From assembly GCA_030390025.1 (NCBI GenBank), contig CM059431.1, forward strand, positions 122,514,001 through 122,578,000: a DNA stretch of 64,000 nucleotides, written 5' to 3'. Shown here in pieces: positions 2,772 to 43,100 of the stretch. The DNA is from Squalus acanthias (lineage: Eukaryota). The translations under genes were made by a program, and so were the position numbers. The notes under the pieces are model-generated. The model ran no database searches. It was given only the letters and a program-made list of their open reading frames with translations, and was not told the origin of the DNA. Every line of letters begins with the position of its first letter. Position 1 is the stretch's first letter.

Positions 2772-3618
2772 GGGGTGCTAATGGGGTGCAAAGCAACTAG
2801 CATCCAGGCGCGGAGATGTTTGCGCCGCTCACAAAATTGACCAGACATTTTGCAGCGGCACTAAACACTACCGCCACGATCTCCTGCGCCCGCAGATCAT
2901 GACGTCAGTCGAGCGTGCAACGCCCCGGTAGCACCCCGGACCGGATATTGAGTGGCGCCCCCTGTCTTACTGCCTGCTGCTAGCAACAACAGGTTGAGGG
3001 GAGCGTTTTGCAGTCGGGAAGGGACTGGGGGAGCGCTATTTAAAGGCGACCGCTTCCTGCCTTTTTTTGTCGGTGACATTTTTGCACCACGCATTCTGAG
3101 AGAGAGAGAGAGACTTCTGGAGAGATTCAACGCTGTGTGAAGGAGTTTTGGGTACTGAGCAGCACTTTGCAGGTTTATTTTGATTTGACCTTCCTTGCAT
3201 TGATTTAGAAGAGACAATGGGGGCTGCACTCTGAGCTCTTTCCCTGGGCCTCTCCATTGTTCTTTCCAGCAGATTTGATATACAGGTCTCTCCAGGCTGA
3301 GATTCAAGGCTGCAATGAGCAGGGTGTGGATGGAGAGCAAGATCGACCCTCCCCTTTAAGAACTGGCCGGCGCCAGTGTGTCTGTGTTCCATTGCTGACT
3401 GACATCACATGAGCTGCGCCAGCGTTCTGAGGTAGCGCCTCGCTCCTCGGCCTTTGCGCCTTAAGACAGATGTGTAGCGCCTGATTTAGCGCTCCAATCA
3501 CCTCCAGGGGTGATAAAAGTCAAGTTTGCAGTCAGAGGCGATAATTAGTGCCAGGCGCTAAACTTTGCGCCCGGCCGATAATGGCGCCCCAAACGGGGCG
3601 ATACTGAATTTTCCCCCC
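2772..3618 (+). mobile_element. Non-autonomous Harbinger, family A, left end truncated
   Basis: Homologous to 19186-20077; right TIR TACTGAATTTTCCCCC present; about 45 bp of the left end missing; abuts and truncates the ERV. Confidence 0.9.
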
Positions 3619-3926
3619 GCTGTTCCATTGATCCAGCGTGAGAACTGATTCTTGTTTTCGTAAAGTCCTTGCCAGAAGCTCAGTTGATTCCTTCTCCATC
3701 CGCAGTGTTTCCTCCTTCGTTGAAGTAACTTGTTGGTCTTTACTTCTTTTGGTTGTGGCTTTTTGCGAATCCAATTTCTGAGGCGTTGCCAAGCATCATG
3801 TGGAGGAATTGACGACACTGTCTGGCTGACCGCCGTCAGTAGTTCGATCACATCCATTTCCTGTGTCGTGTTCCAAGCTGAGTCTTGTAAGACAGTGTAC
3901 GACTGCACCTTGTATCGTTCCTCCAT
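3619..3926 (-). pseudogene. ORF overlapping the pol 3' end (env leader or accessory ORF), truncated by Harbinger insertion
   Basis: ATG lies in the pol QNG codons (CAAAATGGA), the position of the env start in prototype foamy virus; about 103 codons then cut at 3618; no hydrophobic segment seen. Confidence 0.45.
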
Positions 3927-5660
3927 TTTGGTATCCCGCAGGACATCTTTTTAGATTGTCTATAGAGATAGTTTTAAGAATATGCTTGCTATTCAGCTGA
4001 TTAATATGTATTTCAAAAGTTATTTCATTAATAATGGAACGTATTTGAACAGGTTTTTTCCACTTAGGTCTTAAACCAGGTTTTTGCTCGAACTTCTTTT
4101 CCTGTACCCATTCTACTGCTAGGGGTTGCCATGCTTTGTTTGTCAATTTTTTTCTGCCTATTTGTCTCCCTTATCCTCTGATCAATTTGATGTATCTCCT
4201 CTGTTACTACTTTTTTAAAATCTAACTGTCGCTGTCGGGTCAAGGAATCAGAGAGTGTAGAGGCAATAAAAGAACTATGGGTAAGCGGTGCATGCATCTC
4301 AACCCCATACATTAGATAATATGGAGTTTTAGGGGACACTATCCCTGATGCAGATGCGGGCACATTATTAAGTGATAGCTGCACTTCCGGAATGATGGTG
4401 GTCCACATATTTCCCCTGATTCTCAACAGTTTGACCAATAGCTTTTTTACTTCCTGGTTTTTACATTCCACCAGCCCCGCTGATTGCGGATGATGTGGCG
4501 TGCTGTGCTCTAACCCAATCCCCATTTGTTCGCAGTAGTCTTTGAAGACCGTGGAGGCAAAGGGTCCGCCTTGATCGAGTGTAAGATTTTGGGTGCACCA
4601 GCTACAGTAATTATGTCAGTAATAGCATTGGCGAGTGCGTTTTCCGAAACTGTTTTTGTGGGGACCAGCAGAAGCAAGTGCATCCATCTACACAAACGAG
4701 AACATGTCTGTATCCCAAAGATGGGGGAAGTGGTCCAATGAAGTCAATAAAGAATTTTCCCATTGGTTCATCAGCTTTCACAGGAGCCAATGGTGGTGGC
4801 TTAATTAGTGATGACTTATTGGTTAAATTGCATGGCTCACAATTTGCCGCGTATGTTTTACAGGCCTTAAGCATGCCTGGCCACCAATATAAGGGAGTGA
4901 ATTTGCAGAATGTTGTTCTGGCACCACAATGTGCTTGACCTATGGCCTCGTGAGCTTCTTTTACAAGCTGTTCTCGTCTGTGTCTCGGGGGCATTTCTCG
5001 GTTTCCCTTGGGCAACTTAACTAGCACAATACCCATAGGGGTTTCTGAGTAAAAGTACTTTGGTGGATATCCTGGTGGATTCTCTTTTGTTGGGTCTAAT
5101 AGCTGAATCAGTTCCTCATCTTGATTAGCTGCCCGTTCTGCCCTAGTGATAACACTAATATTGACAGGCCCCTCTCGAGGGGGTGTCATGCAGAACAAAC
5201 GTTTCACTTGTTCATCTGCAAGACTGTTGCCTTTTGAGTGTACTGTCCCAGTGGCATGCCCGTTTACATGAATCACCTGACAATTCTGTTTCTCCATCCT
5301 CGAACGGAGAATGTCTTCCCACAATGACTTATGTTTTATGGGTTTACCCTTATGATTGGTAAAGTTTGTTTCTTCCCAGAAAACTAGATCTTGGTTATAT
5401 CCTCTTTTACAATAGTCACTATCTGTACAGATTAATGTGGGTTTAATAGGGTCTGCCTTTTCTAAAGCATACCATAGTGCTGTGGCTTCAGCATATTGCG
5501 CTGTCTTATGGCCAAGGGGTATGGGCAGTAATTCTGCTGGATAAAAAGAATAGGAATCTCTAAAATTCCCTACTACTATCTCCATCCCAGCTGAAGATTG
5601 TTGGGATGTCCCTTTTTTAATTGTCATTGACGATCCATCACAGTAAATGACTTGATGGTA
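3796..5660 (-). pseudogene. pol: pol fragment (RNase H + integrase), about three frameshifts
   Basis: [46 protein letters not shown] (RNase H); AH..AHCG..YWWPGM..CEPC (HHCC); [37 protein letters not shown] (DDE); LRPKWKKP..TISIDNLK (C-terminal domain). Confidence 0.9.
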
Positions 5661-6192
5661 GCAGCCATTTGAATTTCCTAATTAAAAGACTTGGCCAATT
5701 CCGACAGGGTTTGCCATTTCATCAGGAACTAACCTCGGTTAGGATTTAATATGAACTTCATAAGAAATTTCTAGACCTCAATGGTATATTGAAGGAGTTC
5801 TGATTTAAGTTCAACAAGACCTGATCAGGGACTTGTCGTCTCTAGAGACTTAAATCTGGGTCTTAGTACCACTGTCAGTAAAACACTCCTTTATCACTTA
5901 ACAATCTACGAGATGGATATTGATATCAATGTAAGTATAGGGTTCTGTATCAACTTGTTAACACACACGTTCATCAACAAATGAAGGGATATTTACTAGT
6001 CCTAGCCCCTTTAGGGCTACCCCCGGATCAGGCGTATTTCTCAGATGTTCACTTTCAACTAAAGTTTGAGGTAGCCGAATCCTAAAGACACTTAATCGGG
6101 TTAAAGGTCCGGGCTATCTCTCCCGAAAGGAAAGGAACAACCCGAGAATGTTACCATCCTCCAGATAGTGCTTTTAATAAGTTTAGCTAGAC

Positions 6193-7119
6193 TGTAACGT
6201 CCCGGATATTATTGGGGTCTGGGAAACTTCCTCAGAGTTCTGCAACTCTTCACCAAAGAGTGTACAAAAATTGAGTTCACGAGTTTTTGATACAGAAGAC
6301 TTATGTGAGACAATTCTAAAAATATATAGAGATTTATTAAAGAACCAACATGCAATGTACAGTTGGTGAATCAGTCAATTGCAACATTAACAGTTCTAAA
6401 AAGAGAAAAAATACTATCTTTTTAACAGAGAATCTTACTTTTAAATCTTAACTTCGCTACAACTTTACAGTTCGTAAAGGTTTCTATACAGGATATCCAT
6501 CAATATCAAATACCTTTGATCCCCGAGGTACAAAGAGTGGTAGACTACAGAGCCGCCTCTGAAGCCGAGAATCACTTTGCCCGATCAAAGCGAGTCTGAT
6601 ATCCCATTTGAAACTTCAAAATTTATACCCTTTTTCAGTGGTATTTCCTTTAAAGTTTCTGCTGATGCAAGTCAATTATCCCTATTCAACTTTCTGCCGA
6701 CCTCTTCAATTCTTACTGCTACATCAGCCAGAATCTTGTCTCATCTCCAGGTGTTCTAGGGTCACCAAATAGAACAGAGTGAAAGGCAGGTGTTCCTTAT
6801 TTTGTCATCTTTATGAGGGCAGATGTTCCTTATCTAATGTGCCATCTTTACGAAGTTTAAATTAGAACACCTTAACCAGGGTGAACCATTGTTTTTGTTC
6901 CCAAAGGTCAGTCTGTCGGAGCCATGTACCTTCTGTTTCAATAAGGTTATTTATTCAGGGTCAACAACTGTCTTATCTCAATAGCCAGAATTCTTTCATA
7001 GCTATTTCATAGTTAGGTCTCTAAATTTCCAAACCCAGTTTGTCATGTTTAATAAGGCCAGAATTCTTTCTTAAGATAGTATATTTTTCTGAATAGGTTA
7101 TATGGCTTATTCCTTCACA
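6193..7119 (-). repeat. LTR (probable 5' LTR of the ERV)
   Basis: Minus-strand TGTGAAGG...ACGTTACA termini; TATAAA at 6627-6622; AATAAA at 6338-6333; no TSD; homologous end at 12408. The 6193 boundary is less certain because no clear PBS follows. Confidence 0.7.
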
Positions 7120-11950: not shown

Positions 11951-11959
11951 CTCCCCCAC

Positions 11960-12408
11960 TTGATGCCATTCTAACCAAGGTCTTCTGTTTGTATCTTTTG
12001 CATTTAAAACACCTCAACCAGGTGCACCATTGTCTTCTCAGTTACCTCAGTTGGTTACAACACATAGTCGTGTCTCCGTGTTTCATTTGATGTCATTTTT
12101 ACGAAGGCATATGTTTCTTAATTTTCTGTGATTCTTTCCAAAGTGTTGGTTTAAGACACTTTAACAGGGTATACCATTGTGTTCTTTCCAAAGCTGCAGA
12201 CTTAAGGACCTCCAACCTCCTGTTTCAACAAGGCTATTGTTTCAGTGTCAACAACTTATCTTATCCCAACAGCTTGTATGCTGTTTACAGCTTTAGATTG
12301 TTGAGGCTTCCAGATTTTCAAACCTAGTTTGTCATGTTTTAGTAAAGTCAAAGTTCTTTCATAGGATAGTGTATTTTTCTGAATAGGTATATTGCTTATT
12401 CCTTCACA
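11960..12408 (-). repeat. Partial LTR (U3 end) related to 6193-7119
   Basis: Shares TATTTTTCTGAATAGGT..GCTTATTCCTTCACA terminus and adjacent blocks. Confidence 0.75.
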
Positions 12409-13940: not shown

Positions 13941-15222
13941 AACCTCACAGATATTTTTTAACTTACTTGGGCACAGCAAAAACAATAATAGTGCCTGGCC
14001 ATTCACCTCCATCAGGCCTTTACATCCTACAGCAGCACATTATTTCTTCTCCCCATTAACAGGCGAATCAGATGCATTTCTAATGTTTCTAGCATGTTGA
14101 GAGTGATATAATGAGGCTTATGATGTTGAAGAGCACCATGCGCACTCCACCATACTTCTGATTAGGATCATGCCCAACTGAAAAATCTAAGCTGCCAACT
14201 CCCACCGATTTTGCATAGGTTTCATGCAATCTTTCTCCCCAACTTTCTATCTCTTCTCATTTCCTTAATCCATTGATTGTTTGGTGGGATACGGTTCCAC
14301 AAGTGATGGTCACCCACATCGGCATTTCTCATCTGCGTTCTCATGTTATTTGACTGTGTTGGACAACGCAACCAGGTCTCATACTGTCTTCAACTAATGT
14401 CCAAATACATGGACTTTTAGCAGGGTACACTCGAAACTGATCAGGAGCAGGAACACTGGCTAACATTCCCCTGCCCAACCCAGGGCTCTGAGGCCAAATT
14501 AAGCACTCTACTGCTAGCTTGTCTATGATTACAGATCTCAGCAGGGTACAAGGATTGAACGTCAGATCTTCCTGGTTTATATGGAGTAGATTTTAACTTG
14601 CTGACAGAATGTAAAATTGCCATTGTGGACCAGCCGCCTGTTATAGAAACTGCCTGATTGTTATTTCCATTAATGGAAATCAAATCAGGGCAGTTTCAAT
14701 AATGGGCTGTGCAATTTTACGGCCTGGTGGCAAATTGAAAATCTCCCCCATGTCTCAGCTAGTCACATTTTAATTTTTGCACTCCCAATAGGGAGCCTCA
14801 CCCAGCAGGAGTGCCTATCAGAAATCTGGCAGTGCACAGTGGAACATTTTCCAACTATTTATTCAAATTGTCAGAAAATTATGTTCAGCATGCATCCACA
14901 TTTCTGACATGCACTGAATAAGGCTCCCCAACAGGAGTTCAAAGTTGGAAAATGATCCCAACTGTATCAACTAATGAGCCATTAGTGAAATTGTTAAGTC
15001 TCACTGTCATTGACCCATTATCACAATCTTTTTTCAAGTTAATCTTTCTCATCAGCGAGGCTGAGAAATACTTGGAAAGCACGTTTCTAGAAGTGGTCAC
15101 CCCGCTGTCTCAGAATGTGCAGGCGGAGAGGGAATGGTTGACCGCCAGACAGAGAAGGAGGACCAGGCAGGATTCCCCAGAGTGCATCTCACTCGCTAAC
15201 CAGTATTCAGTTCTGGAAACTG

Positions 15223-15831
15223 GTGGGGGTCATGGCTCCTATGGGGAGAGCAGCCAGAGCCAAGGCCACGGCACCACGGGTGACTCAGCTGCAAAGGGCG
15301 GGGGGGAGGAAGAAGAGTGGAAGAGCAATAGTGATAGGGGATTCATTGGTTAGGGAAACAGATAGGCGTTTCTGTGGACTCAGACATGACTCCAGGATGG
15401 TATGTTGCCTCCCTGGTGCCAGGGTCAAGGATGTCACTGAACGGCTGCAGGACATTCTGAGGGGGGAGGGTGAACAGCCAGAGGTCGTTGTCCATATCGG
15501 TACCAATGACATAGGCAGAAAGAGGGATGAGGTCCTGCAGGCAGACCATAGGGAGCTAGGAAAGAGATTAAAAAGCAGGACCTCAAAGGTAGTAATCTCC
15601 GGATTACTCCCGGTGCCACGTGCTAGTGAGTACAGGAATAGGAGGATAGAACCAATGAATGCGTGGCTGGAGAGATGGTGCAGGAGGGAGGGCTTTAGAT
15701 TCCTGAGGCATTGGGACCATTTCTGGGGAAGGTGGGACCTGTATAAGCCAGACGGGTTACACCTCAACAGACCTGGGACCAATATTCTCGTGGGGAGGTT
15801 TGCTAGTGCTATTGGGGAGGGTTTAAACTAG
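15223..15831 (+). CDS. CR1 ORF1 SGNH/GDSL esterase domain (N-terminus missing or frameshifted)
   Basis: IVIGDSLVR, CLPGA, HIGTND and DGLH blocks. Confidence 0.85.
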   Translation: MGVMAPMGRAARAKATAPRVTQLQRAGGRKKSGRAIVIGDSLVRETDRRFCGLRHDSRMVCCLPGARVKDVTERLQDILRGEGEQPEVVVHIGTNDIGRKRDEVLQADHRELGKRLKSRTSKVVISGLLPVPRASEYRNRRIEPMNAWLERWCRREGFRFLRHWDHFWGRWDLYKPDGLHLNRPGTNILVGRFASAIGEGLN

Positions 15832-19185: not shown

Positions 19186-20077
19186 GGGGGAAAAATTCAG
19201 TTGGTTGCGCCTCCCGTTAGCACCTTAAGAGGGCGCTAATGGGGCACAAAGCAACTAGTGCCCGGGCGCGGTGATGTTTGTGCCGCTCACGCAATTAAAT
19301 AGACATTTGCGGCGGCGCTAAACACTACTGCCACGATCTCCTGCGACGGCAGATCGTGATGTCAGTCGAGTGCGCAATGCCCCGGTAGCGCCCCGGAGCG
19401 GATATTGAGTGGCGCCCCCTCCCTTACCGCCTGCCGCTAGCAACGACAGGTTGAGGGGAGCGTTTTGCAGTCAGGAAGGGACTGCGGGAGCGCTATTTAA
19501 AGACGACCGCTTCCTGCCTTTTTTTGTTGGTGACGTTTTTGAACCACGCATTCTGAGAGAGAGAGAGAGAGACTTCTGGAGAGATTCAATGCTGTGTGAA
19601 GGAGTTTTGGGTACTGAGCAGCACTTTGCAGGTTCATTTTGATTTGCCCTTCATTGTATCAATTTAGAAGAGACTGTTGGGGCTGCACTCTGAGCTCTTT
19701 CCCTGGTTCTCTCCATTGTTCTTTCCAGCAGATTTGATGTACAGGTCTCTCCAGGCCGAGATTCAAGGCTGCAATGAGCAGGATGTGGATGGAAAGCAAG
19801 ATTAACCATCCCCTTTAAGAACTGGTCGGCGCCATTGTGTGTGTGTTCCATTGCTGACTGACATCACATGAGCTTTGCCAGCACTCTGAGTTAGCGCCTC
19901 GCTCCTCGGCCTTTGCGCCTTAAGACAGATGTGTAGCGCCTGATTTAGCGCTCCAATCACCTCCAGGGGCGATAAAAGTCAAGTTTGCAGTCGGAGGCGA
20001 TAATTAGCGCCAGGCGCTAATTTTTGCGCCCGGCCGATAATGGCGCCCCAAATGGGGCGATACTGAATTTCTCCCCC
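19186..20077 (+). mobile_element. Non-autonomous Harbinger family A, complete (892 bp)
   Basis: TIRs GGGGGAAAAATTCAG / CTGAATTTCTCCCCC; TAT TSD; both ends homologous to 20096-24366. Confidence 0.95.
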
Positions 20078-20606
20078 TATGACTTATGACTCTATGGGGT
20101 AAAAATTCAGTTGGTTGCGCCTCCCGTTAGCGCCTTAAGAGGGCGCTAATGGGGCGCAAAGCCGCTAGCGCCCAGGCGCAGCGATGTTTGCGCCGCTCGG
20201 GAACTTAACTAGACATTGTGCGGCGGCGCTAAACCTTACCGCCGCGACCACCTGCGCGCGCAGATTGTGACGTCATTCCATGGTGCAACGCCCTTGTGGC
20301 GCCTCGGAGCGGAAATTGAGTGGCGCCCCCTGCCTTCCCGCCTGGCGCATCCAACGACCGGAAGACTGGAACGCTATCAATCGCTGTGGGGCTGGGGGGG
20401 GCACTATTTAAAGGGGGCCTCTTCCTGTCTTTTTCTGTGGTTGACATTTTTGCACCACTCATTCTGAGAGAGAGAGAGAGATTCGGAGAGAGAGAAAGAG
20501 AGACTTCTGCATTGAGTCAACGCTTTGTGAGGTAGTTTTGCCCACTGATCCTAACTTCGCTGCTACTTTGGTTGCTGTCCTTCATAACTTTGCTTGCAAA
20601 GAGACT

Positions 20607-22079: not shown

Positions 22080-24007
22080 CTACTTTTTGCCCTTCGAGGG
22101 TGATCTCCTTCCCTTGCACACTTCCCCCCTTCTAACCCTACTGCTCCTCCGCAATGGGACCTCAGTGGCTGCAGCAAGGCTGGTGGAAGGCTGCTGATCA
22201 TCAGACCCTGACACTGCAGATGCCCCTGAAGGATGGCCTCGACCAGTTCTGGGCCTGGAGGGCCCGGCTGCAGACTGCACCAACTCTGCATGGGCGGCAG
22301 CAGTCTGTCCTACAGGCGGTGGCAAGTGCAGTGGAGAAGTGACAGTGTTGGCAGCAGGAATGCTGTCATCGTGAGAGAAGACAGCAACTCCCTGCTCGAC
22401 CGACAAACTGGCACTCCCACGGGGCAGCACTTCAGCATCCGGAGCAATCTGCTGGAGCACAGATTGCTGGCCTGCTGTGGCGCGGTGAGAGCCCCGGGGA
22501 CATGTGAACGAACCATCGAGGTTGGCAGCAGTCAGTGCTCGCGTGGCCTCAATCTGAGTCTGCATGAGAGCAGTCAGAGATGGGATCACGGCAGTCAGTG
22601 ACTGAATTGCAGCACTAAGCTTTAGTGTGGCATCCACCTGTGCTACAGCGAAGTGCTCCACACTCCTTGCCATTGACTCAATGCATTCGGGCACCCTTCC
22701 CACTGCACCCATGAGCTCAGTGTGCATGCCCACCGCCTGGATGTTCATTTCTGCGATCAGCCGCTCCTCCTCTGCGTCCATTGCAGTAGGAGTCGCTGGC
22801 ATACTCTCCCTCTGGGGAGAAGGCCCCCGTTCTTCCCTACCCCCATGGCGTTGCTGCAGCCCACTGGGTCCTGGAGCTTCACCCTCATCAGACTCTTCCC
22901 CCCTGCTCCCCTCCAGGGAAGGCGTGTTCCCAGTGTGGGCATGGGCTTCCTCGGGAGAGGGTAGCACTGATGCTCCGGCTTCCTCTTCCTCCTCGGCTGC
23001 AGCTTCACTCCCACTGGCAGCTTCAGGGCCCGTCTCCTCAGCTGGTGAATCACCATCTGAAAGCAGGGAGGTACAAGAGTGGCTTTAGCGTGAGGACAGG
23101 GTGGCAGTAAGGGAGGAATAAGTGCAGCGAGTTAGCAAGTTGGATTGAAAGTGTCAAAGGCTGGTGTTGTGAGGGACAAGTGGAAGGACAGAGGACAAAA
23201 AGGTAATGACCTTACCATTGCTGTCCAGAACGGGGTCGGCGTCTCCAGTGGCAACGGGACCGATCACCCGGCTTGCCACAATCCTGTGGACGCGCTCCTC
23301 AAGATCGCTGAAGGGTTGCAGCTGAGGCCGCCCTCCACCTGTCCGTTGCTGCTGTCTCCTATTATGCGCCAGCTTGGCCTGCAAGAAAAAGGACAGCATC
23401 TGAGTAAATATACAGCCATGGTCTTGCCTGATGTGCCTCCCATAGGTGAATAGCCCTTACTGTATACAGCCATGGTCTTGCCTGATGTGCCTCGCATAGG
23501 TGAATAGCCCTTACTGTATACAGCCATGGTCTTACCTGATGTGCCTCCCAGAGGTGAATAGCCCTTACTGTATGCAGCCATGGTCTTGCCTGATGTGCCT
23601 CCCATAGGTGAATAGCCCTTACTGTATGCAAAGTGTGGAATGTGTGTGTGTGTTTCATGAAAGGGCCATAGGTGTTGGATGAGTGTTGTGCATTGGGGTT
23701 TTAAGACCCTCTGGCCATAGAGTGAGGTTGAGATGGAGGGATGGAGAGGTATTGAGAAAAAGCCACTCACCCTGACGACCCGAGTGAGGTCGTTGAACTT
23801 TTTGCGGCATTGAACATGGGTCCTAGGCACCATGCTCCTGGAGGAGACGCTCTGAGCCACCTCCCTCCACACTCTTCTGTACTGGCGTGGCAAAGGCCTC
23901 CTGCCACTCTCAGGGAAGAGTATACATCTTCAGCGCTCCACCGCGCCAACCAGAGCATCCAAGGCCCGCTCGGTGAAGCGCTGAGCTCGTTCTCTCACCC
24001 TCTCCAT
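22080..24007 (-). pseudogene. Harbinger Myb/SANT DNA-binding protein gene, three exons (24007-23771, 23378-23216, 23056-22080)
   Basis: RAQRFTERALDALV..WREVAQSVS..RTHVQCRKKFNDL|gtgagt; cag|AKLAHNRRQQQRTGGG..|gtaag; GT-AG introns preserve frame; one TGA in exon 1. Confidence 0.88.
23409..23628. repeat. 54-bp tandem repeat x4 in Myb intron 1
   Basis: Unit TATACAGCCATGGTCTTGCCTGATGTGCCTCCCATAGGTGAATAGCCCTTACTG with few substitutions. Confidence 0.95.
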
Positions 24008-28787: not shown

Positions 28788-29541
28788 ACTGTGATTCTAT
28801 ACCTCTTAAGATCAGCAGAGGTGAAGCAGAAATATCAATGCTTATGATTTTCTGTTACCTCCATTGGCACAGAAGGCATGGCAGCTAAAAATTTGCAGCC
28901 CACTCAATGCACTTCTGTCCTAAGTCCAGTGGGACTGCAGCGGAAGGGCCAGGAATTATGCCGGCTCTTGGATCTCATGAGTTCCCGCCTACCCACCAGT
29001 TTCCATTGGCTCTTGTCAAGGGCAGAACCTTTGCCTGGCCCCAAACAAGGTCACCTGTATCACAGTGAGGGCGTGAGCAGGGGAGAGGTCGCCGAGGCTG
29101 GGCTTTCCACAGCCCCAACTTGGGAATCCGCTAAAGGGCTGGTCCACCCAATGGGGAAAGTATTCATATTTATGCCAGAATGTCATGCTTGTGGCCTTTT
29201 GGGGTCATTCAGATTGGACAGTATTAACTTGTGAGTTAATTAACAATGTTATATGTTCTATACGATGGGTAAAAAAACAGACCAATAATGGTTGATTTGG
29301 GAAGTTGAAAGTAATGTTGAACATTTAGTGAGGACTATGCACCCAAGATAAGTAATAATCTACAGCTAGCAAATATGATGTGACAAGTTGCTTGTGTTTT
29401 CAAATCAGGTAGAAAAATAATCTAAGTCAATTGTTCCCATATTGTATTTATTTAAGTGCTTTTTGTTGTTTTTCTTATTGTGAATGGTAGTCTTATGCTA
29501 TAAGAATCATAAATAGTTGGTTTGGGTTAGTTAAATTCTTT

Positions 29542-30434
29542 GGGGGAGAAATTCAGTATCGCCCCATTTGGGGCGCAATTATCGGCCGTGCGCAAAGATT
29601 AGCGCCTGGCGCTAATTATCGCCACCGACTGCAAACTTGACTTTTATCGCCCCTGGAGGTGATTGGAGCGCTAAATCAGGCGCTTCACACCTGTCTTAAG
29701 GCGCAAAGGCCGAGGAGCGAGGCGCTACCTCAGAGCGCTGGCGAAGCTCATGTAATGTCAGTCAGCAATGGAGCACACACACAATGGCACGGGCCAGTTC
29801 TTAAAGGGGATGGTTAATCTTGCTTTCCATCCACATCCTGCTCATTGCAGCCTTGAATCTCGGCCTGGAGAGACCTGCACATCAAATCTGCTGGAAAGAA
29901 CAATGGAGAGTACCAGGCAAAGAGCTCAGAGTGCAGCCCTCACAGTCTTTTCTAAATCGATACAAGGAATGGTAAATCAAAATGAACCTGCAAAGTGCTG
30001 CTTAGTACCCAAAACTCCTTCACACAACGTTGAATCTCTCCAGAAGTCTCTCTCTCTCTCTCTCAGAATGCGTAGTTCAAAAATGGCACCAACAATAAAA
30101 GGCAGGAAGCGGTCACCTTTAAATAGCACTCCCCCTTTCCCTTCATGACTGCAGAACGCTCCCCTCAACCTGTCATTGCTAGCGTCAGGCGGTAAGGCAG
30201 GGGGCGCCACTCAATATCCGCTCCGGGGCGATACCGGGGCGTTGCGCACTCCACTGACGTCACGATCTGCCGGCGCAGGAGATCGTGGCGGTAGTGTTTA
30301 GCGCTGCCGCAAAATGTCTAGTTAAGTTCGCGAGCGGCGCAAACATCGCTGAGCCCAGGCGCTAGTTGCTTTGCGCCCCATTAGCGCCCTCTTAAGGTGC
30401 TAACGGGAGGTGCAACCAACTGAATTTTTCCCCC
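29542..30434 (-). mobile_element. Non-autonomous Harbinger family A, complete
   Basis: Reverse complement of 19186-20077; TTT TSD. Confidence 0.95.
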
Positions 30435-30490: not shown

Positions 30491-33400
30491 GGCCGCGACT
30501 TCACAAGCGGAGGCGGGATCACGGCGGGAGAGATGGTTGGTGGGTTCCAGTCATGTTCCCGGCTGCAGCCGCTCTGTAAAAAGGATTTTCCCTTAATAGG
30601 GCTTGTTAAGCCCGCCGTGTGGGGTTCCTGGCCAATTAAAAGGAAGCGGGTCTGATGACATCATTTGATGACGCGTCATCAGCCGGTTTCCTTAAAGGGA
30701 CCATGGCCGCATTCATTTTGACATTTGTGCTGTCAGTGATCTACAGCATTGAGGTGCTGCAAACACTGACAAGCACTGCACAGAAGTGCACGGCTGCACA
30801 CAGGCTCTCCCATGACTCCCTCCATATGCTTATGGAGGGAGGCACAGCACGCAAGGAGGTTCTCTTCCCTTCCAATACCGGAAGAGACCTCCCCAGGACA
30901 CCAACGCAGCCTGGTTGCACATTGCACAGAGGGCAAAAGCAGGGATGTCGTTAGAAGTATCTGGATGCAGTGGCACAAACCTTTCAATGATCTCAGTAGA
31001 TCATGAAACGTTACTGCAAAACCACACTCAACCTCATCCTGCTGTGCCACTCATCACATCCCCATCACTCTGCCTTCCCTACCCTACTCCTGCACATCCT
31101 TACTCACACCAACTTACCTTGCACCTCCACCCATCCCTCTCTATCTAATATCACTTCCCCATTTCACTAGCCACCCCTCACACTGTAGAATTCGCAAAAT
31201 TATCGCGATTTTATAAAATAAGAAGGAGACATAAAGTTTCGTACAAACAGCTTTATTTCAGCAGAATGCTGTCAGGTTTTCAAAGCGGACACAAACAGCC
31301 TGTAAAATGGCCGCCACGCCTCGTGGCAGAACGTTCTAGACTTTCAATGAGCAGACAAGATGGCGTTCCAATAAACATTTGTGCAAGATCGTACAGGACT
31401 CAGCACATTTGAGATAATTGATAAGACATAATGGGTTTGCATTTTATACATAAATACTGGAATCGGTCTCCCAGGTGCGAATAAGGGCTATTGTACCGAG
31501 CGATCAAGGACCCATCCAAAGACATTAATATGCAAAATCCCCACGACTCTACGATGAGAGAGCCGTTTGCGGGTAGTTACAGAAAGCATTTGGAAGCCCC
31601 AAAACCCCTCCAGGGAGACTACTAGCCGGTTCCACAATGGGAGAAGTATTAACGGGTACTCAGACAGTTACAAGTATCACCGAAACCCATTAAAGACGGA
31701 GATCACCCTATACAAGAAGTTTGAGCTCCAAAACCCTGACAAAAGATAGACATTAAGATTGGGCGGGAAAAGAGGAATTACAGCACTATAACTGTAAGGT
31801 ACAACCGTCCATCTGTCTCTTGTTTTCTCTTGCCTCTTGCCTTGTTGCTCTTGTCTCTTGCCACCTGCCTCTTGCTGCTCTTGCTGTTTTGACTCGCTGG
31901 AAGCCTATTGAACTTTTATTCTCTTGCCTGACGGTTCTGGACTCTGATCCGCTAGGATCAACCTCGTGGCTTGCCGCGAAGATCTGTGTAGAACTGGGCT
32001 GTGAGGCCTTGAAACGGGCACACCATCCCGAGAAGTCGGTAAACGGTGTTGGAACCGAAGCCCCGAGATGAGATGAGATGAGATGAGATGAGATGAGAAG
32101 AGAAGAAGACGACAATACGTATCGCCACGGTCAGTAAGCCCCGACCGCGCCTGTAAGTCGAATAAACACTTTCCTTGCCCAGGAAGACCATTCTTTGAGT
32201 TTTACAAACTGGTGAGGGCACAGGAAGACTCTTTCTTCGAGTAGTATTGGAACTCCGAGGACAACACAGTTCTTCATGACAGCAGACGGTCCAGCCTGCT
32301 AGCCGGAGCAGAAGCGAGTAAACAAGTGGGGTACAGAGACCCCTGATCAACACGTGGATAGTCAGGTGCTGCGGTAAAAACATCCGAGCAGAGTTTCGGA
32401 ATTCTCCGAGTTATCACGAGTGGTGAGCATGAGTCTCGATCCTACAAATCTAGTTTAGGACAGGTATTGATAGGGGAGGATAATTGAGTTTTAAGGATAA
32501 TTGTAATGTGTGCCCCCTTTTACGATGTGTCGTGCGCTCCTCGTTTCCCTAAAATTAGTTCCATAACTGTGTGTAAGATTGTACTGTCATTAATCTGTGC
32601 TTATGACATGTATCTCGTAATCTTGAATAATATGCAATAAAGATTTTCCATTTCGCACTATTCAACCGGGTCTACCTGAGTTTTCCCTGCATTATTGCTC
32701 TCGCACCTAAGTCCAGTGTCAGAACCGTAAGGGCGAGTGGGTCGAACCACTCACAGGTGTCTAGTGTTACCAGGCTGGCTGGAGACCAGAACAGGCAACA
32801 AGGCCTAACCTCGCACTAGCACCTAGGCTAAGCACAGAGCCGCAGGTCACCCCTTACAACACTCACCCTCATCCTAGTGCAATAATACCAACTAACAACA
32901 CACAAGGGTAGGCACTTGGGTGTTTTATGCAATGTTTATGTGAATTTTCTGTTAATGTGTTGTCAAACATTGAAATCTTTATTTTCAACACTTTGCCTTA
33001 TTGTACAGATCTGTGCTCAGCTTTGGAAGTGTCTTAGTGAGTTGCAGTGAATGGTGAGACATAACGGTATCTCCTGCAATGGTGATGACTGTGAAAGGAA
33101 TAGCTTGGGCATTGTAGGAATGCTTTATGGTGTTGGTGTGGGGTGGTGTTAACCTGGCGCATCATGTGGCAGCCATGGTGTACAGCGTCAAGTGAAGATA
33201 ATCTGGCCATGGTGATGTCATCGCTGGCCTCCCGGGCAGCAATGTGGTCGGGTTCTGATGCCCTGTGTCCTGTGCAGCATCAGGTGATTGCAGAGAAGGT
33301 TGGTGTTGTTGTTAGTGTGCCTGGTGATGTTGGTGTTGGGGCTGATCGTGGAGGGATTCTGAGGACCAAAGTGAGCTTTTTTCAAGGGCACCGATGTTGC

Positions 33401-33934: not shown

Positions 33935-34425
33935 AAAGAAGTAGAGGCATGATTTGAAAACATCTCATTTTTCCCAAGCTGTCACATCTCAGCCATGTTT
34001 AATATTTTCTGCTCTTTTATCCCAATTTATTCATATCCTGAAGGCACTGCCTCCTTGTTGTGGTACAGTTCTATGGGAGCCAGCAGTATGTAAGACTTGA
34101 CATTGAGTGTTGGCAGGCTGTGTGCATCACAAATGAATCAATCGTGTCCTCATCTGACAACCACAAACATGTACTTCCGAGCAGGGGTCACTGATCAATG
34201 TTGAGGATTCGCTGCCTAGTTCTCCTCACTTGCCAAGCTCATCGCATGCACTGAGGTCATTTTATAGAACAGAACAGGGATCAAACCTGGGATGTTTCTG
34301 GCGTGTAACAGAAAAGCCCTGCAGACATGTTGAAAGTAGTGAAATTTGATAAGGTTTGTCACTGATTTGGAATGGGACATCAAGAAACGTTCTGAGGTGC
34401 CTTCCCCACAACAGTATAGAATTAA

Positions 34426-35318
34426 GGGGGAAAAATTCAGTCGCGCCCCGATTGGGGCGCAAATATCGTCCAGGCGCAAAAATTAGCGCCTGGCGCTAAT
34501 TATCGCCACTGACTGGAAACTTCACTTTTATCGACCCCTGAGGTGATTGGAGTGCTAAATCAGGCGCTTCACACCTGTCTTAAGGCGCAAAGGCCGAGGA
34601 GCGAGGCGCTTCCTCAGAGCGCTGGCGAAGCTCATGTAATGTCAGTCAGCAATGGAACACACACACAATGGCACGGGCCAGTTCTTAAAGGGGATGGTTA
34701 ATCTTGCTTTCCATTCACATCCTACTCATTGCAGCCTTGAATCTTGGCCTGGAGAGACCTGCACATCAAATCTGCTGGAAAGAACAATGGAGAGTACGAG
34801 GCAAAGAGCTCAGAGTGCAGCCCCCACAGTCTCTCCTAAATCGATACAAGGAATGGCAAATCAAAATGAACCTGCAAAGTGCTGCTCAGTACCCAAAACT
34901 CCTTCACACAACTTTGAATCTCTCCAGAAGTCTCTCTCTCTCTCTCTCAGAATGCATAGTTCAAAAATGGCACCAACAATAAAAGGCAGGAAGCGGTCAC
35001 CTTTAAATAGCGCTCCCCCTTTCCCTTCATGACTGCAGAACGCTCCCTTCAACCTGTCATTGCTAGCGTCAGGCGGTAAGGCAGGGGGCGCCACTCAATA
35101 TCCACTCCGGGGCGATACCGGGGCGTTGCGCACTCGACTGATGTCACGATCTGCCGGCGCAGGAGATCGTGGCGGTAGTGTTTAGCACCGCCGCAAAATG
35201 TCTAGTTAATTTCGCGAGCGGCGCAAACTTCGCCGCGCCCGGGCGCTAGTTGCTTTGCGCCCCATTAGCGCCCTCTTAAGGCGCTAACGGGAGGCGCAAC
35301 CAACTGAATTTTTCCCCC
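34426..35318 (-). mobile_element. Non-autonomous Harbinger family A, complete
   Basis: TIRs GGGGGAAAAATTCAG / CTGAATTTTTCCCCC; TAA TSD. Confidence 0.95.
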
Positions 35319-37945: not shown

Positions 37946-37990
37946 GGGGGTTATTTTGGCCAAAGGGTGAAAACCGGCGATAATAAATGG

Positions 37991-39632
37991 TGTAAGGGGT
38001 GACCTGCGACTCTGTGCTTAGCCTGGGTGCTAGTGCGGGGTTAGGCCTTGTTGCCTGTTCTGGTCTCCAGCCAGCCTGATAACACTAGACACCTGTGCGT
38101 GGTTCGACCCACTCGCCCTTATGGTTCTGACACTGGACTTAGGTGCGAGAGCAATAATGCAGAGAAAGACTCAGGTAGACCCGGTTGAATAGTGCGAAAT
38201 GGAAAATCTTTATTGCATATTATTCAAGATTCCGAGATACATGTCATAAGCACAGATTAACGACAGTACAATCTTACACACAGTTATGAAACTAATTTTA
38301 GGGAAACGAGGAGCGCATGACACATCGTAAAAGGGGACACACATTATAATTATCCTTAACACTTAAACCCTCCCCTAACAAACCTGTCCTAATCTAGATT
38401 TGTAGGATCGAGACTCATGCTCACCACTCGTGATAACTCGGAGAATTCCGAAACTCTGCTCGGATGTTTTTACCGCAGCACCTGACTATCCATGTGTTGG
38501 TCAGGGGTCTCTGTACCCCACTTGTTTACTCGTCTCTGCTCCGGCTAGCAGGATGGACCGTCTGCTTTCATGAAGATCTGTGTTGTCCTCGGAGTTCCGA
38601 TACTACTCAAAAAAGAGTCTTCCTGTGCCCTCACACCGGTTCGATAAAACTCGAAGAAGGGTCTTCCTAGGCAAGGAAGTGTTTATTCGACTTACAGGTG
38701 CGGCCGGGGCTTACTGACCGTGGCGATACGTATTGTCGTCTTCTTCTCTTCTCATCTCATCTCATCTCATCTCATCTCCTCTCGGGGCTTCAGTTCCAAC
38801 ACCGTTTACCTGACTTCTCGGGATGTTGCGCCCGCCTCCAGGCCTCACAGCCCAGTTCTCCACAGATCTTCACGGCAAGCCACGAGGTTGATCCTAGCGG
38901 ATCAGAGTCCAGAGCCGTCAGGCAAGAGAATAAAAGTTCAACAGCCTTCCAGCGAGTCAAAGCAGCAAGCGCAAGAAGAAGCAGAGGCAGCAGTCAGCAG
39001 AGCGATGGACGGTTGTACCTTACAGTTATAGTGCTGTAATTCCTCTTTTCCCGCCCAATCTTAATGTCTATCTTTTGTCAGGGTTTTGGCGCTCAAACTT
39101 CTTGTATAGGGTGATCTCCGTATTTAATGGGTTTCGGTGATACTTGTAACTGTCTGAGTACCCGTTAATACTTCTCCCATTGTGGAACCGGCTAGTAGTC
39201 TCCCTGGAGGGGTTTTGGGGCTTCCAAATGCTTTCTTTAACTACCCGCAAACGGCTCTCTCATCGTAGAGTTGTGGGGATTTTGCATATTAATGTCTTTG
39301 GATGGGTCCTTGATCGCTCGGTACAATAGCCCTTATTCGCACCTGGGAGACCGATTCCAGTATTTATGTATAAAATGCAAACCCATCATGTCTTGTCAAT
39401 TATCTCAAATGTGCTGAGTCCTGTACGATCTTGCACAAATGTTTATTGGAACGCCATCTTGTCTGCCCATTGAAAGTCTAGAACTTTCTGCCACGAGGCG
39501 TGGCGGCCATTTTACAGGCTGTTTGTGTCCATTTCGAAATCTGACAGCATTCTGCTGAAATAAAACTGTTTGTACGAAACTTTATGTCTCCTTCTTATTT
39601 TATAAAATCGCGATAATTTTGCGAATTCTACA
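37991..39632 (-). repeat. Solo LTR, 1642 bp, same family as 31184-32858
   Basis: Reverse-complement near copy; ATGG TSD. Confidence 0.9.
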
Positions 39633-40190: not shown

Positions 40191-43100
40191 CAATGGCTCA
40201 AAGACTGGTGTGGGAAAAATGGGTTTTGCTTCTTGGGACACTGGCACCAGTACTGGGGCAGGAGAGAGCTGTTCCGTTGGGACGGACTTCACTTGGCCAG
40301 TGCTGGGACTAGTGTCCTGGCGAATCGAATAACTAGGGCTGTGGAGAGGGCTTTAAACTAATTAGTGGGGGGGAGGTTTCAAGAGAGCAAAAAATAAAAA
40401 TGACAACAGAGAGGGTCATAGACATAGGTAGCAGTAGGAGAATCACAAATCAGAGCGTGGCAGGAAGGGACAGAGTGTGTGGAGTAAAAGGTAAAGTGGT
40501 AAAAAGTAAAAAAGCTGGAACTAAGTGCCACAAAGCATATTTGAAAGTTCTCTATCTGAATGCACGTAGCATTCGTAACAAAATAGACGAGTTAATGGCA
40601 CAAATAACTACATATGGTTATGATATTGTGGCCATTACAGAAACATGGCTGCAGGGTGACAATGCCTGGGAATTAAACATACCAGGTTATTTAACGATCA
40701 GGAAGGACAGGCAGGAAGGAAGGGGAGGTGGGGTGGCTATGTTAATAAAGGAAGGAATCACTGTAATACAGAGTAATGATATTGGGTCAAAAAATCATGA
40801 TAATGAAACAGTTTGGGTGGAGATAAGGAATAATAAGGGGAAAAAAACACTAGTGGGCGTAGTCTATAGGCCTCCGAACAGTTGCAACTCTGTTGGACGG
40901 AGTATCAATCAGGAAATAGTTGAGGCATGTAATAAGGGAACATCTATAATTATGGGGGATTTTAACTATCATATTAATTGGACAAATCAAATGGGGCAGG
41001 GCTGCCTTGAGGATGAGTTCATTGAGTGTATTAGGGATGGGTTTCTTGAGCAGTATGTAACTGAACCGACCAGGGGGCAAGCAACCTTAGATCTGGTCCT
41101 GTGTAACGAGACAGGATTAATTAAAAATGTCCTAGTAAAGGATCCCCTTGGAATGAGTGACCATAACATGGTTGAATTCCATATTCAATTAGAGGGTGAG
41201 AAGGTTGGATCTCAAACAAGCGTGCTAAGCTTGAATAAAGGAGACTATGAAGGTATGCGAGCGGAATTGAGTAGAGTGGATTGGGAAAATAGATTAAAGG
41301 GTAAGACGACACATGATCAGTGGTGTACATTCAAGGAGTTATTTTACAACTTCCAAAAAATATATATTCCACTGAAAAGAAAAGGGTGTAAAAGAAAGGA
41401 CAGTCATCCGTGGCTAAGTAAAGAAATTAACGATAGTATTCGACTAAAAACAAGGGCATATAAGGTAGCGAAATCTAGTGGGAGGACAGAGGATTGGGAA
41501 AACTTTAAAAGGCAGCAAAAAATAACAAAAAGATTGATTAAGAAAGGGAAGATAGACTATGAAAGTAAATTAGCAAAAAATATAAAAACAGATAGTAAGA
41601 GTTTTTATAGTTATATAAAAAGAAAAAGGGTGGCTAAAGTAAATGTTGGTCCCTTAGAGGATGAGACCGGGAAATTAATGGTGGGAAATATGGAGATGGC
41701 AAAAACACTGAATGAATATTTTGTATCAGTCTTTACAGTAGAGGACACTAAGAATATCCCAACACTGGACAAACAGGGGGCTATAGGGGGAGAGGAGCTA
41801 AACACGATCAAAATCACTAAGGAAGTGGTACTCGGTAAAATAATGGGACTCAAGGCGGATAAATCACCTGGACCTGATGGCTTACATCCTAGAGTCTTGA
41901 AGGAAGTGGCGGTAGGGATTGTAGATGCATTGGTAATAATTTTTCAAAACTCCCTGGATTCCGCTAAGGTCCCGGCAGACTGGAAAACTGCTAATGTAAC
42001 ACCCTTATTTAAAAAGGGCAGTAGACAGAAGGCTGGTAACTATAGACCGGTTAGCCTAACATCTGTGGTAGGTAAAATTTTGGAGTCCATTATTAAGGAA
42101 ACAGTAACAGGACATTTGGATAATCATAATTTAATAGGACAAAGTCAGCATGGTTTTACGAAGGGGAAGTCATGTTTGACAAATTTGCTGGAGTTCTTTG
42201 AGGAAGTAACATATAGAGTGGATAAAGGGGAACCAGTGGACGTAGTGTATTTAGACTTCCAAAAGGCATTTGACAAGGTGCCACACAAAAGATTATTGCT
42301 TAAGGTAAAAAATCACGGGATTGGGGGTAATATTCTGGCATGGATAGAGGATTGGCTATCTAACAGAAAGCAAAGAGTTGGGATAAATGGTTCATTCTCA
42401 GACTGGCAATCAGTAACTAGCGGTGTTCCACAGGGGTCAGTGCTGGGTCCCCAACTCTTTACAATCTATATTAACGATTTAGAGGAAGGGACCAAGTGTA
42501 ACATATCAAAATTTGCAGATGATACAAAGATGGGAGGGAAAGTAGTGAGTGAGGAGGACATAAAAAACCTGCAAGGGGACATAGACAGGCTAAGTAAGTG
42601 GGCAGAGATTTGGCAGATGGAATACAACACTGGAAAGTGTGAGGTGATGCACTTTGGCAGGAAAAATAGTAGAGCAATTTATTATCTTAATGGCAAGAAA
42701 CTGGAGAGTACTGAAGTGCAAAGGGATCTGGGGGTCCTGGTGCACGAAACTCAAAAGGTTAGTATGCAGGTGCAGCAAGTGATTAAGAAGGCAAATGGAA
42801 TGTTGGCTTTCATTGCTAGGGGGATAGAATATAAAAATAGGGAGGTATTGCTTCAGTTGTACAAGGTATTGGTGAGACCGCACCTGGAATACTGCATACA
42901 GTTTTGGTGTCCTTACTTAAGGAAAGACATCCTTGCTCTCGAGGCAGTGCAAAAAAGGTTCACTCGGTTAATCCCGGGGATGAGGGGGTGGTCATATGAG
43001 GAGAGGTTGGGTAGATTGGGACTCTACTCATTGGAGTTCAGAAGAATGAGAGGCGATCTTATTGAAACATATAAGATTGTGAAGGGGTTGGATCGGGTGG

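What the first reader, a model, noticed from the sequence alone, without database searches (positions are those of the whole stretch)
3619..7119. Foamy-virus-like endogenous retrovirus in a probable shark genome
Seen: RNase H and integrase motifs run collinear with prototype foamy virus Pol. Examples: [12 protein letters not shown] vs [28 protein letters not shown] vs KFFIDYIGPLPPSQGY, LRPKWKKP vs LRPRWHKP, TISIDNLK vs TVSIDNLK (foamy motifs recalled, not searched). Known: foamy-like ERVs occur in fish, amphibians and a chimaera but are sparsely sampled in cartilaginous fish. Inference: this may be an undescribed lineage. Only about three frameshifts suggest it is not very old.
Basis: partly seen in the sequence, partly recalled or inferred. 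Interest (0 to 1): 0.78.

Follow-up and report, generated by a model that had tools for sequence, protein, structure and literature searches.

The report
Envelope-less foamy virus family in shark
This is a broken, shortened copy of a foamy-virus family that lost its envelope gene and spread through a shark genome like a jumping gene, and whose capsid and polymerase genes share one reading frame, unlike mammalian foamy viruses.

Summary
The foamy call holds. The window's RNase H and integrase match prototype foamy virus; relatives in the same genome carry spumavirus Gag, A9 protease and, rarely, foamy Env; trees reject Gypsy and class I. The window copy is a dead, non-autonomous member: the LTR is 5982-7119 (not 6193-7119), a 3.36-kb gag-to-RT deletion is shared with at least 40 loci, and the 3' end is cut off. 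The family is large: at least 2,738 LTR starts and 285 RNase H copies, against 11 env matches at 6-7 places. 23 of 29 sampled copies run from integrase to the 3' LTR with no room for env; none showed env. Pol stayed under purifying selection between env-less subgroups, pointing to retrotransposition inside cells. Unexpectedly, gag and pol lie in one frame, split by TGA (106 exact loci) or open with TGG (31), with no Met before the protease in 17 of 17 copies, suggesting read-through Gag-Pol rather than the spliced Pol of foamy viruses. Shark endogenous foamy viruses are already published (one key paper unreadable), so host range is not new. This scan had not noted the family before.

The parts
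5982..7119 (-). 5' LTR, 1,138 bp, TG...CA
   Evidence: Ends fixed on 9 other LTR loci, 6 of 9 flanked by perfect 4-bp target-site duplications; 92-95% identical to the 39 other best hits
5966..5979 (-). Primer-binding site position, degenerate in this copy
   Evidence: 8 of 20 other copies have the exact 14-nt Lys-type site two bases after the LTR; its complement lies in a word present 215 times in tandem clusters; the tRNA-Lys name is recalled, not confirmed by a tRNA scan
5661..5717 (-). First 19 codons of gag (ATG at 5717), with a premature stop at codon 12 in this copy
   Evidence: Located by homology to full-gag copies; in frame with RNase H in 8 of 9 deleted copies
5660..5661 (-). Junction of a 3.36-kb deletion removing capsid, protease and RT
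   Evidence: Same breakpoint in the window and 7 of 7 other deleted copies tested, 1-nt overlap, no GT..AG ends; 40 exact junction words genome-wide, control 0
5199..5651 (-). RNase H
   Evidence: PF00075 E 1.6e-18; foamy Pol/RNase H best PDB hits
3796..5130 (-). Integrase (NED/H2C2, core, SH3 C-terminal domain), broken by three frameshifts
   Evidence: PF17921, PF00665, PF18103; PFV integrase E 1.6e-31 and 3e-21; frame changes
3622..3795 (-). Start of the short env-less spacer that in other copies leads to the polypurine tract and 3' LTR
   Evidence: Colinear with other copies for 269 of a 610-nt reference stretch, then cut off
2773..3618 (.). Unrelated terminal-inverted-repeat element, itself truncated, at which the provirus ends
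   Evidence: Repeats D1/D2/D8, I4/I5/I10/I11; junction shown; no rest of the provirus found upstream in the window

Best explanation
A foamy virus (spumavirus Gag, A9 protease, foamy Env) entered a shark germ line. One descendant lost env and the accessory region in a single deletion and then multiplied inside cells as an LTR retrotransposon, leaving thousands of LTRs and a few hundred internal copies, roughly 10-40 My ago. Gag and Pol are encoded in one frame; Pol is most likely made as a Gag-Pol precursor by read-through of a TGA that ends Gag (or directly, in copies where that codon is TGG). Two in-frame deletion derivatives (one without capsid; one, the window's type, without capsid, protease and RT) were copied in trans by helper copies. 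The window copy is one such passenger, now dead. Shown: lineage, anatomy, shared deletions, counts, frame relation, purifying selection. Inferred: intracellular route, read-through, trans-complementation, dates.
For: Lineage: (37-39% identity over 92-94% of Pol to 7 mammalian foamy Pols). Env loss: 23 of 29 distinct copies have the next LTR 441-1,086 nt after the integrase SH3 region, 6 undecidable, 0 with env; the spacer is colinear in all three subgroups; PF03408 gives 11 matches at 6-7 places (floor) against 285 exact RNase H words and 2,738 exact LTR starts; a 361-bp piece 457-817 bp upstream of one env match is 89% identical to the window integrase. True integration: 4-bp TSDs. Selection: net dN/dS between env-less subgroups 0.16 (PR-RT), 0.01-0.05 (RNase H), 0.24-0.27 (IN). 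One frame: spumavirus Gag and A9 protease in one open frame in one copy; one shared stop position in 9 of 17 covering copies; TGA in 10, TGG in 6, GGA in 1 of 17; 106 and 31 exact loci; no in-frame Met before the protease Asp in 17 of 17; no strong splice acceptor, no slippery site, other frames closed. The TGA sits about 20 residues after a V-K-I-I motif like the foamy p3 site (seen; motif from PMC5210030), as a native Gag end would.
Against: Copies were picked as best matches to the window protein, which favours env-less, little-mutated copies and lowers pN/pS. The env search used a stricter first look, so env loci are undercounted. Rare env-bearing relatives could have supplied Env in trans; solo LTRs cannot be assigned to env-less or env-bearing parents. 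The gag/pol junction of an env-linked copy was not obtained (none of 150 listed hits lay at the expected places); the one TGG copy lying 7 kb from an env match is not proven to be the same provirus. The hairpin behind the TGA is not significant (z -1.42 for 36 nt; -0.58 and -0.30 for 79 nt). Within-group pN/pS (0.32-0.65) does not separate helper from passenger classes. Capsid-less copies carry TGA in 11 and TGG in 18 of 38 hits, so a clean Gag-giver/Pol-giver split does not hold. No RNA evidence of read-through or of a spliced pol message.
Confidence: 0.68

Rival explanations
1. Spread by reinfection, not retrotransposition: env-less genomes were packaged into particles made by a few env-bearing helpers (or a circulating virus) and entered the germ line as defective passengers.
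For: Env-bearing relatives exist in this genome; foamy budding needs Env (PMC3705263, passages); the window's class certainly needed RT in trans.
Against: Pol was under purifying selection on branches between subgroups that share the env deletion; env loci are few and more diverged (84-89% to env-less copies, against 88-95% among them).
Confidence: 0.2
2. Pol is still made separately, as in mammalian foamy viruses, from a spliced or non-AUG-initiated message; the shared frame is incidental and TGA is a firm stop.
For: This is the rule for all studied foamy viruses (PMC3705263, PMC3196705, passages); the protease Asp lies 29 codons after the stop, close to the 20-23 codons from Met in mammalian Pols; no significant read-through structure.
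Against: No in-frame AUG in 17 of 17; acceptor-like AGs after the stop have 5-10 pyrimidines in 18, the background median; no GT..AG joint into pol among the 15 joints shown for 3 RNA-guess runs (9 not shown; contigs cannot show absence); both deletion classes keep gag's ATG in frame with pol.
Confidence: 0.25
3. TGA copies make Gag only and depend on the minority of TGG copies for Pol: a two-part system.
For: TGG is enriched among capsid-less copies: 18 of 29 typed against 13 of 102 others, Fisher p 3e-7; the branch to the TGG clade shows dN/dS 0.05-0.27; foamy Pol can be packaged apart from Gag, and in-frame fusions work in PFV (PMC3196705, passages).
Against: The TGG clade is nested inside TGA copies in both copy trees, so it is the later one; 11 capsid-less copies carry TGA; kin share both traits, so the p value counts loci, not events.
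Confidence: 0.15
4. The element is a Gypsy retrotransposon or a class I (gamma/epsilon) ERV with chance foamy-like motifs.
For: No env, gag-stop-pol in one frame and 4-bp TSDs also fit those groups.
Against: AU p 1e-59 for grouping with 6 Gypsy rows and 2e-7 with 4 class-I-like rows; spumavirus-specific Gag and protease profiles; no MLVIN_C, no Cys-His box.
Confidence: 0.02

Closest known systems
Mammalian foamy viruses (PFV, SFV, FFV; Spumaretrovirinae)
   Same: Pol 37-39% identical over 92-94% of its length; PF20672 Gag, PF03539 protease, PF18103 integrase tail, PF03408 Env in rare relatives; Gag capsid region hits PFV Gag structures 5m1h/8ozk; Lys-type PBS, 4-bp TSD, GGGTG at the PPT/LTR border in 14 of 16.
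   Different: No env, tas or bet in the amplified form; gag and pol in one frame with no Met at the pol start, whereas those viruses make Pol separately (PMC3705263, passages); thousands of germ-line LTRs.
Cartilaginous fish endogenous foamy virus (Wang, Chen, Cui, J Virol 2023, PMC9972966)
   Same: Same host class and virus group by its title; this family may be one of its lineages or a relative.
   Different: Unknown: only the title was seen in reference lists; the text was not held. Whether it reports env loss or the gag/pol frame is open.
ERV-Spuma.0-Sca of small-spotted catshark (PMC10699275)
   Same: Shark Spuma ERV, 293 elements, oldest about 36 My (parts 1-2 of 4 read).
   Different: It groups with teleost FLERVs and showed no recognisable Gag domain there; this family has a clear spumavirus Gag domain. 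Grouping with teleost-type FLERVs is not rejected here (AU p 0.26). No direct sequence comparison was made.
High-copy EFVs of tuatara (ERV-Spuma-Spu) and coelacanth (CoeEFV)
   Same: High copy number; re-integration was proposed; only 165 of 1,959 tuatara Pol hits had Env nearby (PMC6669660, passages).
   Different: There the proposal rests on Gag GR-box loss and the described elements carry env; a single shared env deletion with its own sub-lineages was not described in the passages read.
XtERV-S and ERV-L (class III, non-foamy)
   Same: XtERV-S has gag and pol in one frame split by TGA, with read-through predicted (PMC8278194, passages); MuERV-L is env-deficient and amplified (abstract start).
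   Different: They lack foamy Env, Gag and protease signatures; frog class-III-like Pols held here fall outside the starred foamy clade. No named ERV-L was in the trees.
P0008, an unnamed 1,687-aa Logan protein
   Same: Foamy-like Pol (35-37% identity) preceded by about 520 residues in the same open frame; groups with this family and a catshark RT at 88/88 in the RT tree.
   Different: No PF20672 hit in its N-terminal part; host and context unknown; position unresolved in the RNase H-integrase tree.

Membership tests
Spumaretrovirinae lineage | Pol/RT groups with foamy viruses | tested here: met
   Starred clade 100/100 (RT, 35 of 41 rows) and 100/99 (RNase H-IN, 23 of 41 rows, includes the window frame). 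Order inside the clade unresolved.
Spumaretrovirinae lineage | Spumavirus Gag central domain, no Cys-His box | tested here: met
   PF20672 E 8e-13 to 3.5e-16 in 4 gag frames; PFV Gag PDB hits; no CCHC in the one frame tested
Spumaretrovirinae lineage | A9 aspartic protease | tested here: met
   PF03539 above cut-off in 3 frames
Spumaretrovirinae lineage | Foamy-type Env | tested here: inconclusive
   Absent from 23 of 29 copies (6 undecidable); present at 6-7 places genome-wide, one shown to adjoin family integrase
Spumaretrovirinae lineage | Pol with its own AUG in a frame different from gag (spliced pol mRNA) | tested here: not met
   Same frame, no Met before the protease Asp in 17 of 17. 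DNA level only.
Spumaretrovirinae lineage | Accessory genes tas/bet and internal promoter | tested here: not met
   About 590 nt from the SH3 region to the LTR, longest open stretch 55-101 codons in 11 copies; not examined in env-bearing loci
Spumaretrovirinae lineage | Lys PBS, 4-bp TSD, GGGTG at PPT/LTR border | tested here: met
   8 of 20 exact PBS, 6 of 9 TSDs, 14 of 16 borders; tRNA identity recalled
Spumaretrovirinae lineage | Late reverse transcription, Env-dependent budding | not testable with these tools
   Needs cell work
Gypsy/Metaviridae | RT within Gypsy | tested here: not met
   AU p 1e-59
Class I ERV (gamma/epsilon) | RT within class I; MLV-type integrase tail | tested here: not met
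   AU p 2.3e-7; SH3_11, not MLVIN_C. The class I rows are unnamed or automatic records labelled by their Pfam hits.
Teleost-type FLERV clade | RT groups with ray-finned fish FLERVs | tested here: inconclusive
   Not the best tree, not rejected (AU p 0.26, two rows only)
CFEFV / ERV-Spuma-Sca (published shark families) | High sequence identity to the published elements | not tested
   Sequences not available as tool records; nearest named shark protein (S. torazame, P0122) is 41% identical in RT
Lokiretrovirus, ERV-L | Placement with named members | not tested
   No named member was returned by the searches; no dUTPase hit in the pol frames scanned

The most novel reading that the evidence does not exclude
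A bona fide foamy-virus lineage of sharks made Pol as a Gag-Pol read-through product, so the separate spliced Pol that defines spumaviruses arose later, in the lineage leading to tetrapod foamy viruses; this lineage then dropped Env, Tas and Bet and became an autonomous retrotransposon with its own in-frame, capsid-less and RT-less satellites, none of which is yet in print.
Probability: 0.33. Interest if true: 0.82.

Novelty: new variant of a known kind. Interest (0 to 1): 0.6.

Why it matters
Separate Pol expression and Env-dependent exit are the textbook marks of foamy viruses, and endogenous foamy viruses are usually rare. A family with clear spumavirus Gag, protease and Env ancestry that has gag-stop-pol in one frame would give a natural counterpart to the engineered PFV Gag-Pol fusions (PMC3196705) and a way to ask when spliced Pol evolved. 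Its single env deletion followed by thousands of insertions would be direct genomic evidence that a foamy virus can turn into a germ-line retrotransposon, so far shown in cell culture for primate FV and only proposed for tuatara and coelacanth elements.

Tried and rejected
Splicing as the origin of the two shared deletions: rejected, ends are TT..AG with 1-nt overlap and AT..AG with 8-nt microhomology, which fits template switching. Read-through hairpin: present in most copies but not better than shuffles. Slippery frameshift site: none in 3 copies. A conserved 151-codon +1 frame inside gag: no Pfam hit, ends 59 nt before the junction, not pursued. Host class from the window's LINE ORF2: best hits unnamed, uninformative. 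IMG/VR scan: nothing. Search with the window frame alone: one frog protein at 36%. ESM Atlas on the P0008 N-terminus: no hit at 0.9. Newt P0259 as a second Gag-Pol fusion: set aside, the pol-only records align only from its residue 347, so it may be a gene-model join. Expression: no RNA holder listed; three RNA-guess runs cover the element in contigs but show the same DNA-type deletions, so nothing is concluded. Gag/pol junction of env-linked loci: not found among 150 listed hits. L035 as an env-bearing copy: interrupted by another repeat, link to the env match unproven. Runs with 0.00 share (X21-X24) not used.
Full report
Observation. The minus strand of 3796-5678 encodes RNase H and a complete integrase in four pieces. 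The best solved-structure matches are prototype foamy virus integrase (E 1.6e-31) and foamy RNase H (8e-26); HIV integrase, MLV-type RNase H and Ty3 are many orders weaker. The LTR is longer than stated: 5982-7119, ending TG...CA, fixed by 9 other LTR loci, 6 of which have perfect 4-bp target-site duplications, 2 a one-base mismatch, and 1 is a 3' LTR. The copy stops at about 3621 against an unrelated, truncated inverted-repeat element; no remainder was found upstream in the window.

Host. The genome is 3.71 Gb. The PRDM11 part of a catshark protein matches four exons at 81-92%, including 81% over the poorly conserved tail; that points to a shark, without a control from other classes. Earlier scan notes on this genome say the same. 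Runs under 7 organism codes in 8 studies hold part of the element's words, the best about half, so the family is probably shared with related species. The species was not determined.

Family anatomy. Twenty longer copies were fetched, chosen from the 115 best protein matches, plus 4-kb loci. They read LTR, PBS, leader, gag, pro-pol, short spacer, polypurine tract, LTR. Gag hits the spumavirus central domain (PF20672) and PFV Gag structures; the protease hits the spumavirus A9 profile. Pol is 37-39% identical to 7 mammalian foamy Pols over 92-94% of its length, with Gypsy hits at 22-33% over mostly under 45%. In the RT tree (35 of 41 rows; 6 lacked the region) and the RNase H-integrase tree (23 of 41 rows; 16 too short or absent, 2 near-duplicate SFVs removed; includes the window's own open frame) the family sits in a starred clade with mammalian foamy viruses and amphibian relatives, in the RT tree also chimaera, catshark and teleost-type rows. 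Grouping with Gypsy (p 1e-59) or class I (p 2e-7) is rejected; grouping with two teleost-type FLERV rows is not (p 0.26). Order inside the clade is open.

Env loss and amplification. Of 29 distinct copies, 23 have the next LTR 441-1,086 nt after the integrase SH3 region, 6 are undecidable and none shows env. The spacer is colinear across all subgroups, so one deletion, and has no long open frame. The foamy Env profile finds 11 matches at 6-7 places, a floor. A 361-bp piece just upstream of one is 89% identical to the window integrase and 84-89% to other copies, so Env-bearing relatives exist and are more diverged. Exact-word floors, each with control 0: 2,738 LTR starts (the word was exact in 17 of 31 held LTR starts), 285 RNase H copies. 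Seven LTR pairs differ by 0.9-4.2%, 9-42 My at the rate assumed in PMC10699275; the rate is uncertain. The copy tree is star-like with three subgroups. Net dN/dS between subgroups is 0.16 for PR-RT, 0.01-0.05 for RNase H and 0.24-0.27 for integrase; within subgroups 0.32-0.65. Copies were chosen by protein similarity, which biases these down, least so for PR-RT. I infer replication with working Pol after env loss; help from rare Env in trans is not excluded.

The window's subgroup. A 3.36-kb deletion joins gag codon 19 to the start of RNase H, with the same breakpoint in the window and 7 of 7 copies tested, 40 exact loci, and in frame in 8 of 9 copies. It lacks RT and capsid and must have been copied in trans. 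A second deletion of about 990 nt removes the capsid domain (38 hits at one mismatch, control 4); measured against a copy without a frameshift there it is 993 nt, in frame, in 3 of 4 copies. Both have template-switch-like ends, not splice ends. The window copy has a stop at gag codon 12, three frameshifts and a decayed PBS: it is dead.

The gag/pol junction. Gag (525 codons from its ATG in two copies) runs in the same frame as the protease. One codon, 29 before the catalytic Asp, is TGA in 10, TGG in 6 and GGA in 1 of 17 copies; genome-wide 106 and 31 exact loci. No in-frame Met follows it in 17 of 17; an out-of-frame ATG is present in all. Mammalian Pols start 20-23 residues before that Asp. 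Acceptor-like AGs are weak, both other frames are closed and there is no slippery site. The TGA lies about 20 residues behind a V-K-I-I motif resembling the foamy p3 site (motif from PMC5210030), and the TGG clade is nested among TGA copies, so TGA is probably the native Gag end; one divergent copy has TGG, but its closest gag relatives mostly show a TGA. TGG is enriched in capsid-less copies (18 of 29 typed against 13 of 102; 9 of 38 untyped). Read-through is the simplest reading and has a class III precedent in XtERV-S (PMC8278194), but it is not shown: the downstream hairpin is not significant and RNA data were uninformative. An unnamed Logan protein, P0008, also has foamy-like Pol fused to a long N-terminal region.

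What is known. Foamy viruses make Pol apart from Gag and need Env to bud; primate FV can retrotranspose in cells (PMC3705263, passages); engineered PFV Gag-Pol fusions replicate (PMC3196705, passages of abstract, results, conclusions). Shark Spuma ERVs are published: PMC10699275 (parts 1-2 of 4 and a supplement keyword search), chimaera FLERVs in PMC5512871 (passages, section 6), and Wang, Chen, Cui 2023 (title only). High-copy EFVs with proposed re-integration are known from tuatara and coelacanth (PMC6669660, passages). Also read in passages or sections: PMC5210030 (passages, section 14), PMC10581153 (passages, part 1 of 3), PMC3386198, PMC3814592, PMC8278194, PMC12690878, PMC12386078, PMC11468914, PMC12642411. 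Chen 2021 and Magiorkinis 2012 were seen as titles only. Nine searches showed no paper describing an env-less foamy lineage with a shared deletion or an in-frame gag/pol in a true foamy lineage, but the two most relevant J Virol papers and their supplements are outside the library, so absence from print is not established. The scan's own index had no look-alike.

Verdict. A real endogenous foamy-lineage element, in a host class where such viruses are already reported. What is new-looking is the family: env-less amplification with satellites, and a gag-stop-pol layout that fails the spumavirus hallmark at DNA level. It descends from a foamy virus and works like an env-less class III retrotransposon. 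New variant of a known kind; interest 0.6.

Noticed in passing
window 11957-12408 (-): Partial LTR of the same family, 75-82% identical, from another subgroup
   Followed up: partly
window 40337-43351 (+): Open 1,004-codon LINE ORF2 frame with endonuclease and RT; related decayed copies at about 10.7 kb, 18 kb and 48 kb; an ORF1-like GDSL esterase frame at 15142-15831
   Followed up: partly
window 60835-61470 (-), 23264-23929 (-): Harbinger-type transposase (DDE_Tnp_4) and Myb/SANT frames; the inverted-repeat elements at 2773-3618, 19306-20085, 29534-30313 and 34425-35197 may be their non-autonomous partners
   Followed up: no
window 50960-53214: 2.3-kb repeat 85% identical to the insertion that interrupts integrase in locus L035; an open frame in it has no Pfam hit
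   Followed up: no
window 31278-32861 and 37988-39539: Inverted duplication of about 1.5 kb at 91-98% identity
   Followed up: no
P0122 (S. torazame record GCB66461.1): Gene model joining a foamy-like RT to PRDM11; probably an annotation join, a co-option is not excluded
   Followed up: no
G000:C30 (0.4-2.2 Mb): Cluster of at least 15 PR/SET-domain exon copies about 39% identical to PRDM11, like a PRDM9/7-type expansion (the name is recalled)
   Followed up: no
P0169 (Coilia grayii): Teleost FLERV-like polyprotein of 2,206 aa with an N-terminal Macro domain hit just under the cut-off
   Followed up: no
L026-L044, gag 3' part: A 151-codon open +1 frame overlapping gag in 7 of 20 copies, ending 59 nt before the gag/pol junction; no Pfam hit
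   Followed up: partly
run X18 on L029: A third internal deletion, close to but distinct from the window's (3282 to 6622), in another organism code: repeated selection for the same satellite layout is possible
   Followed up: no
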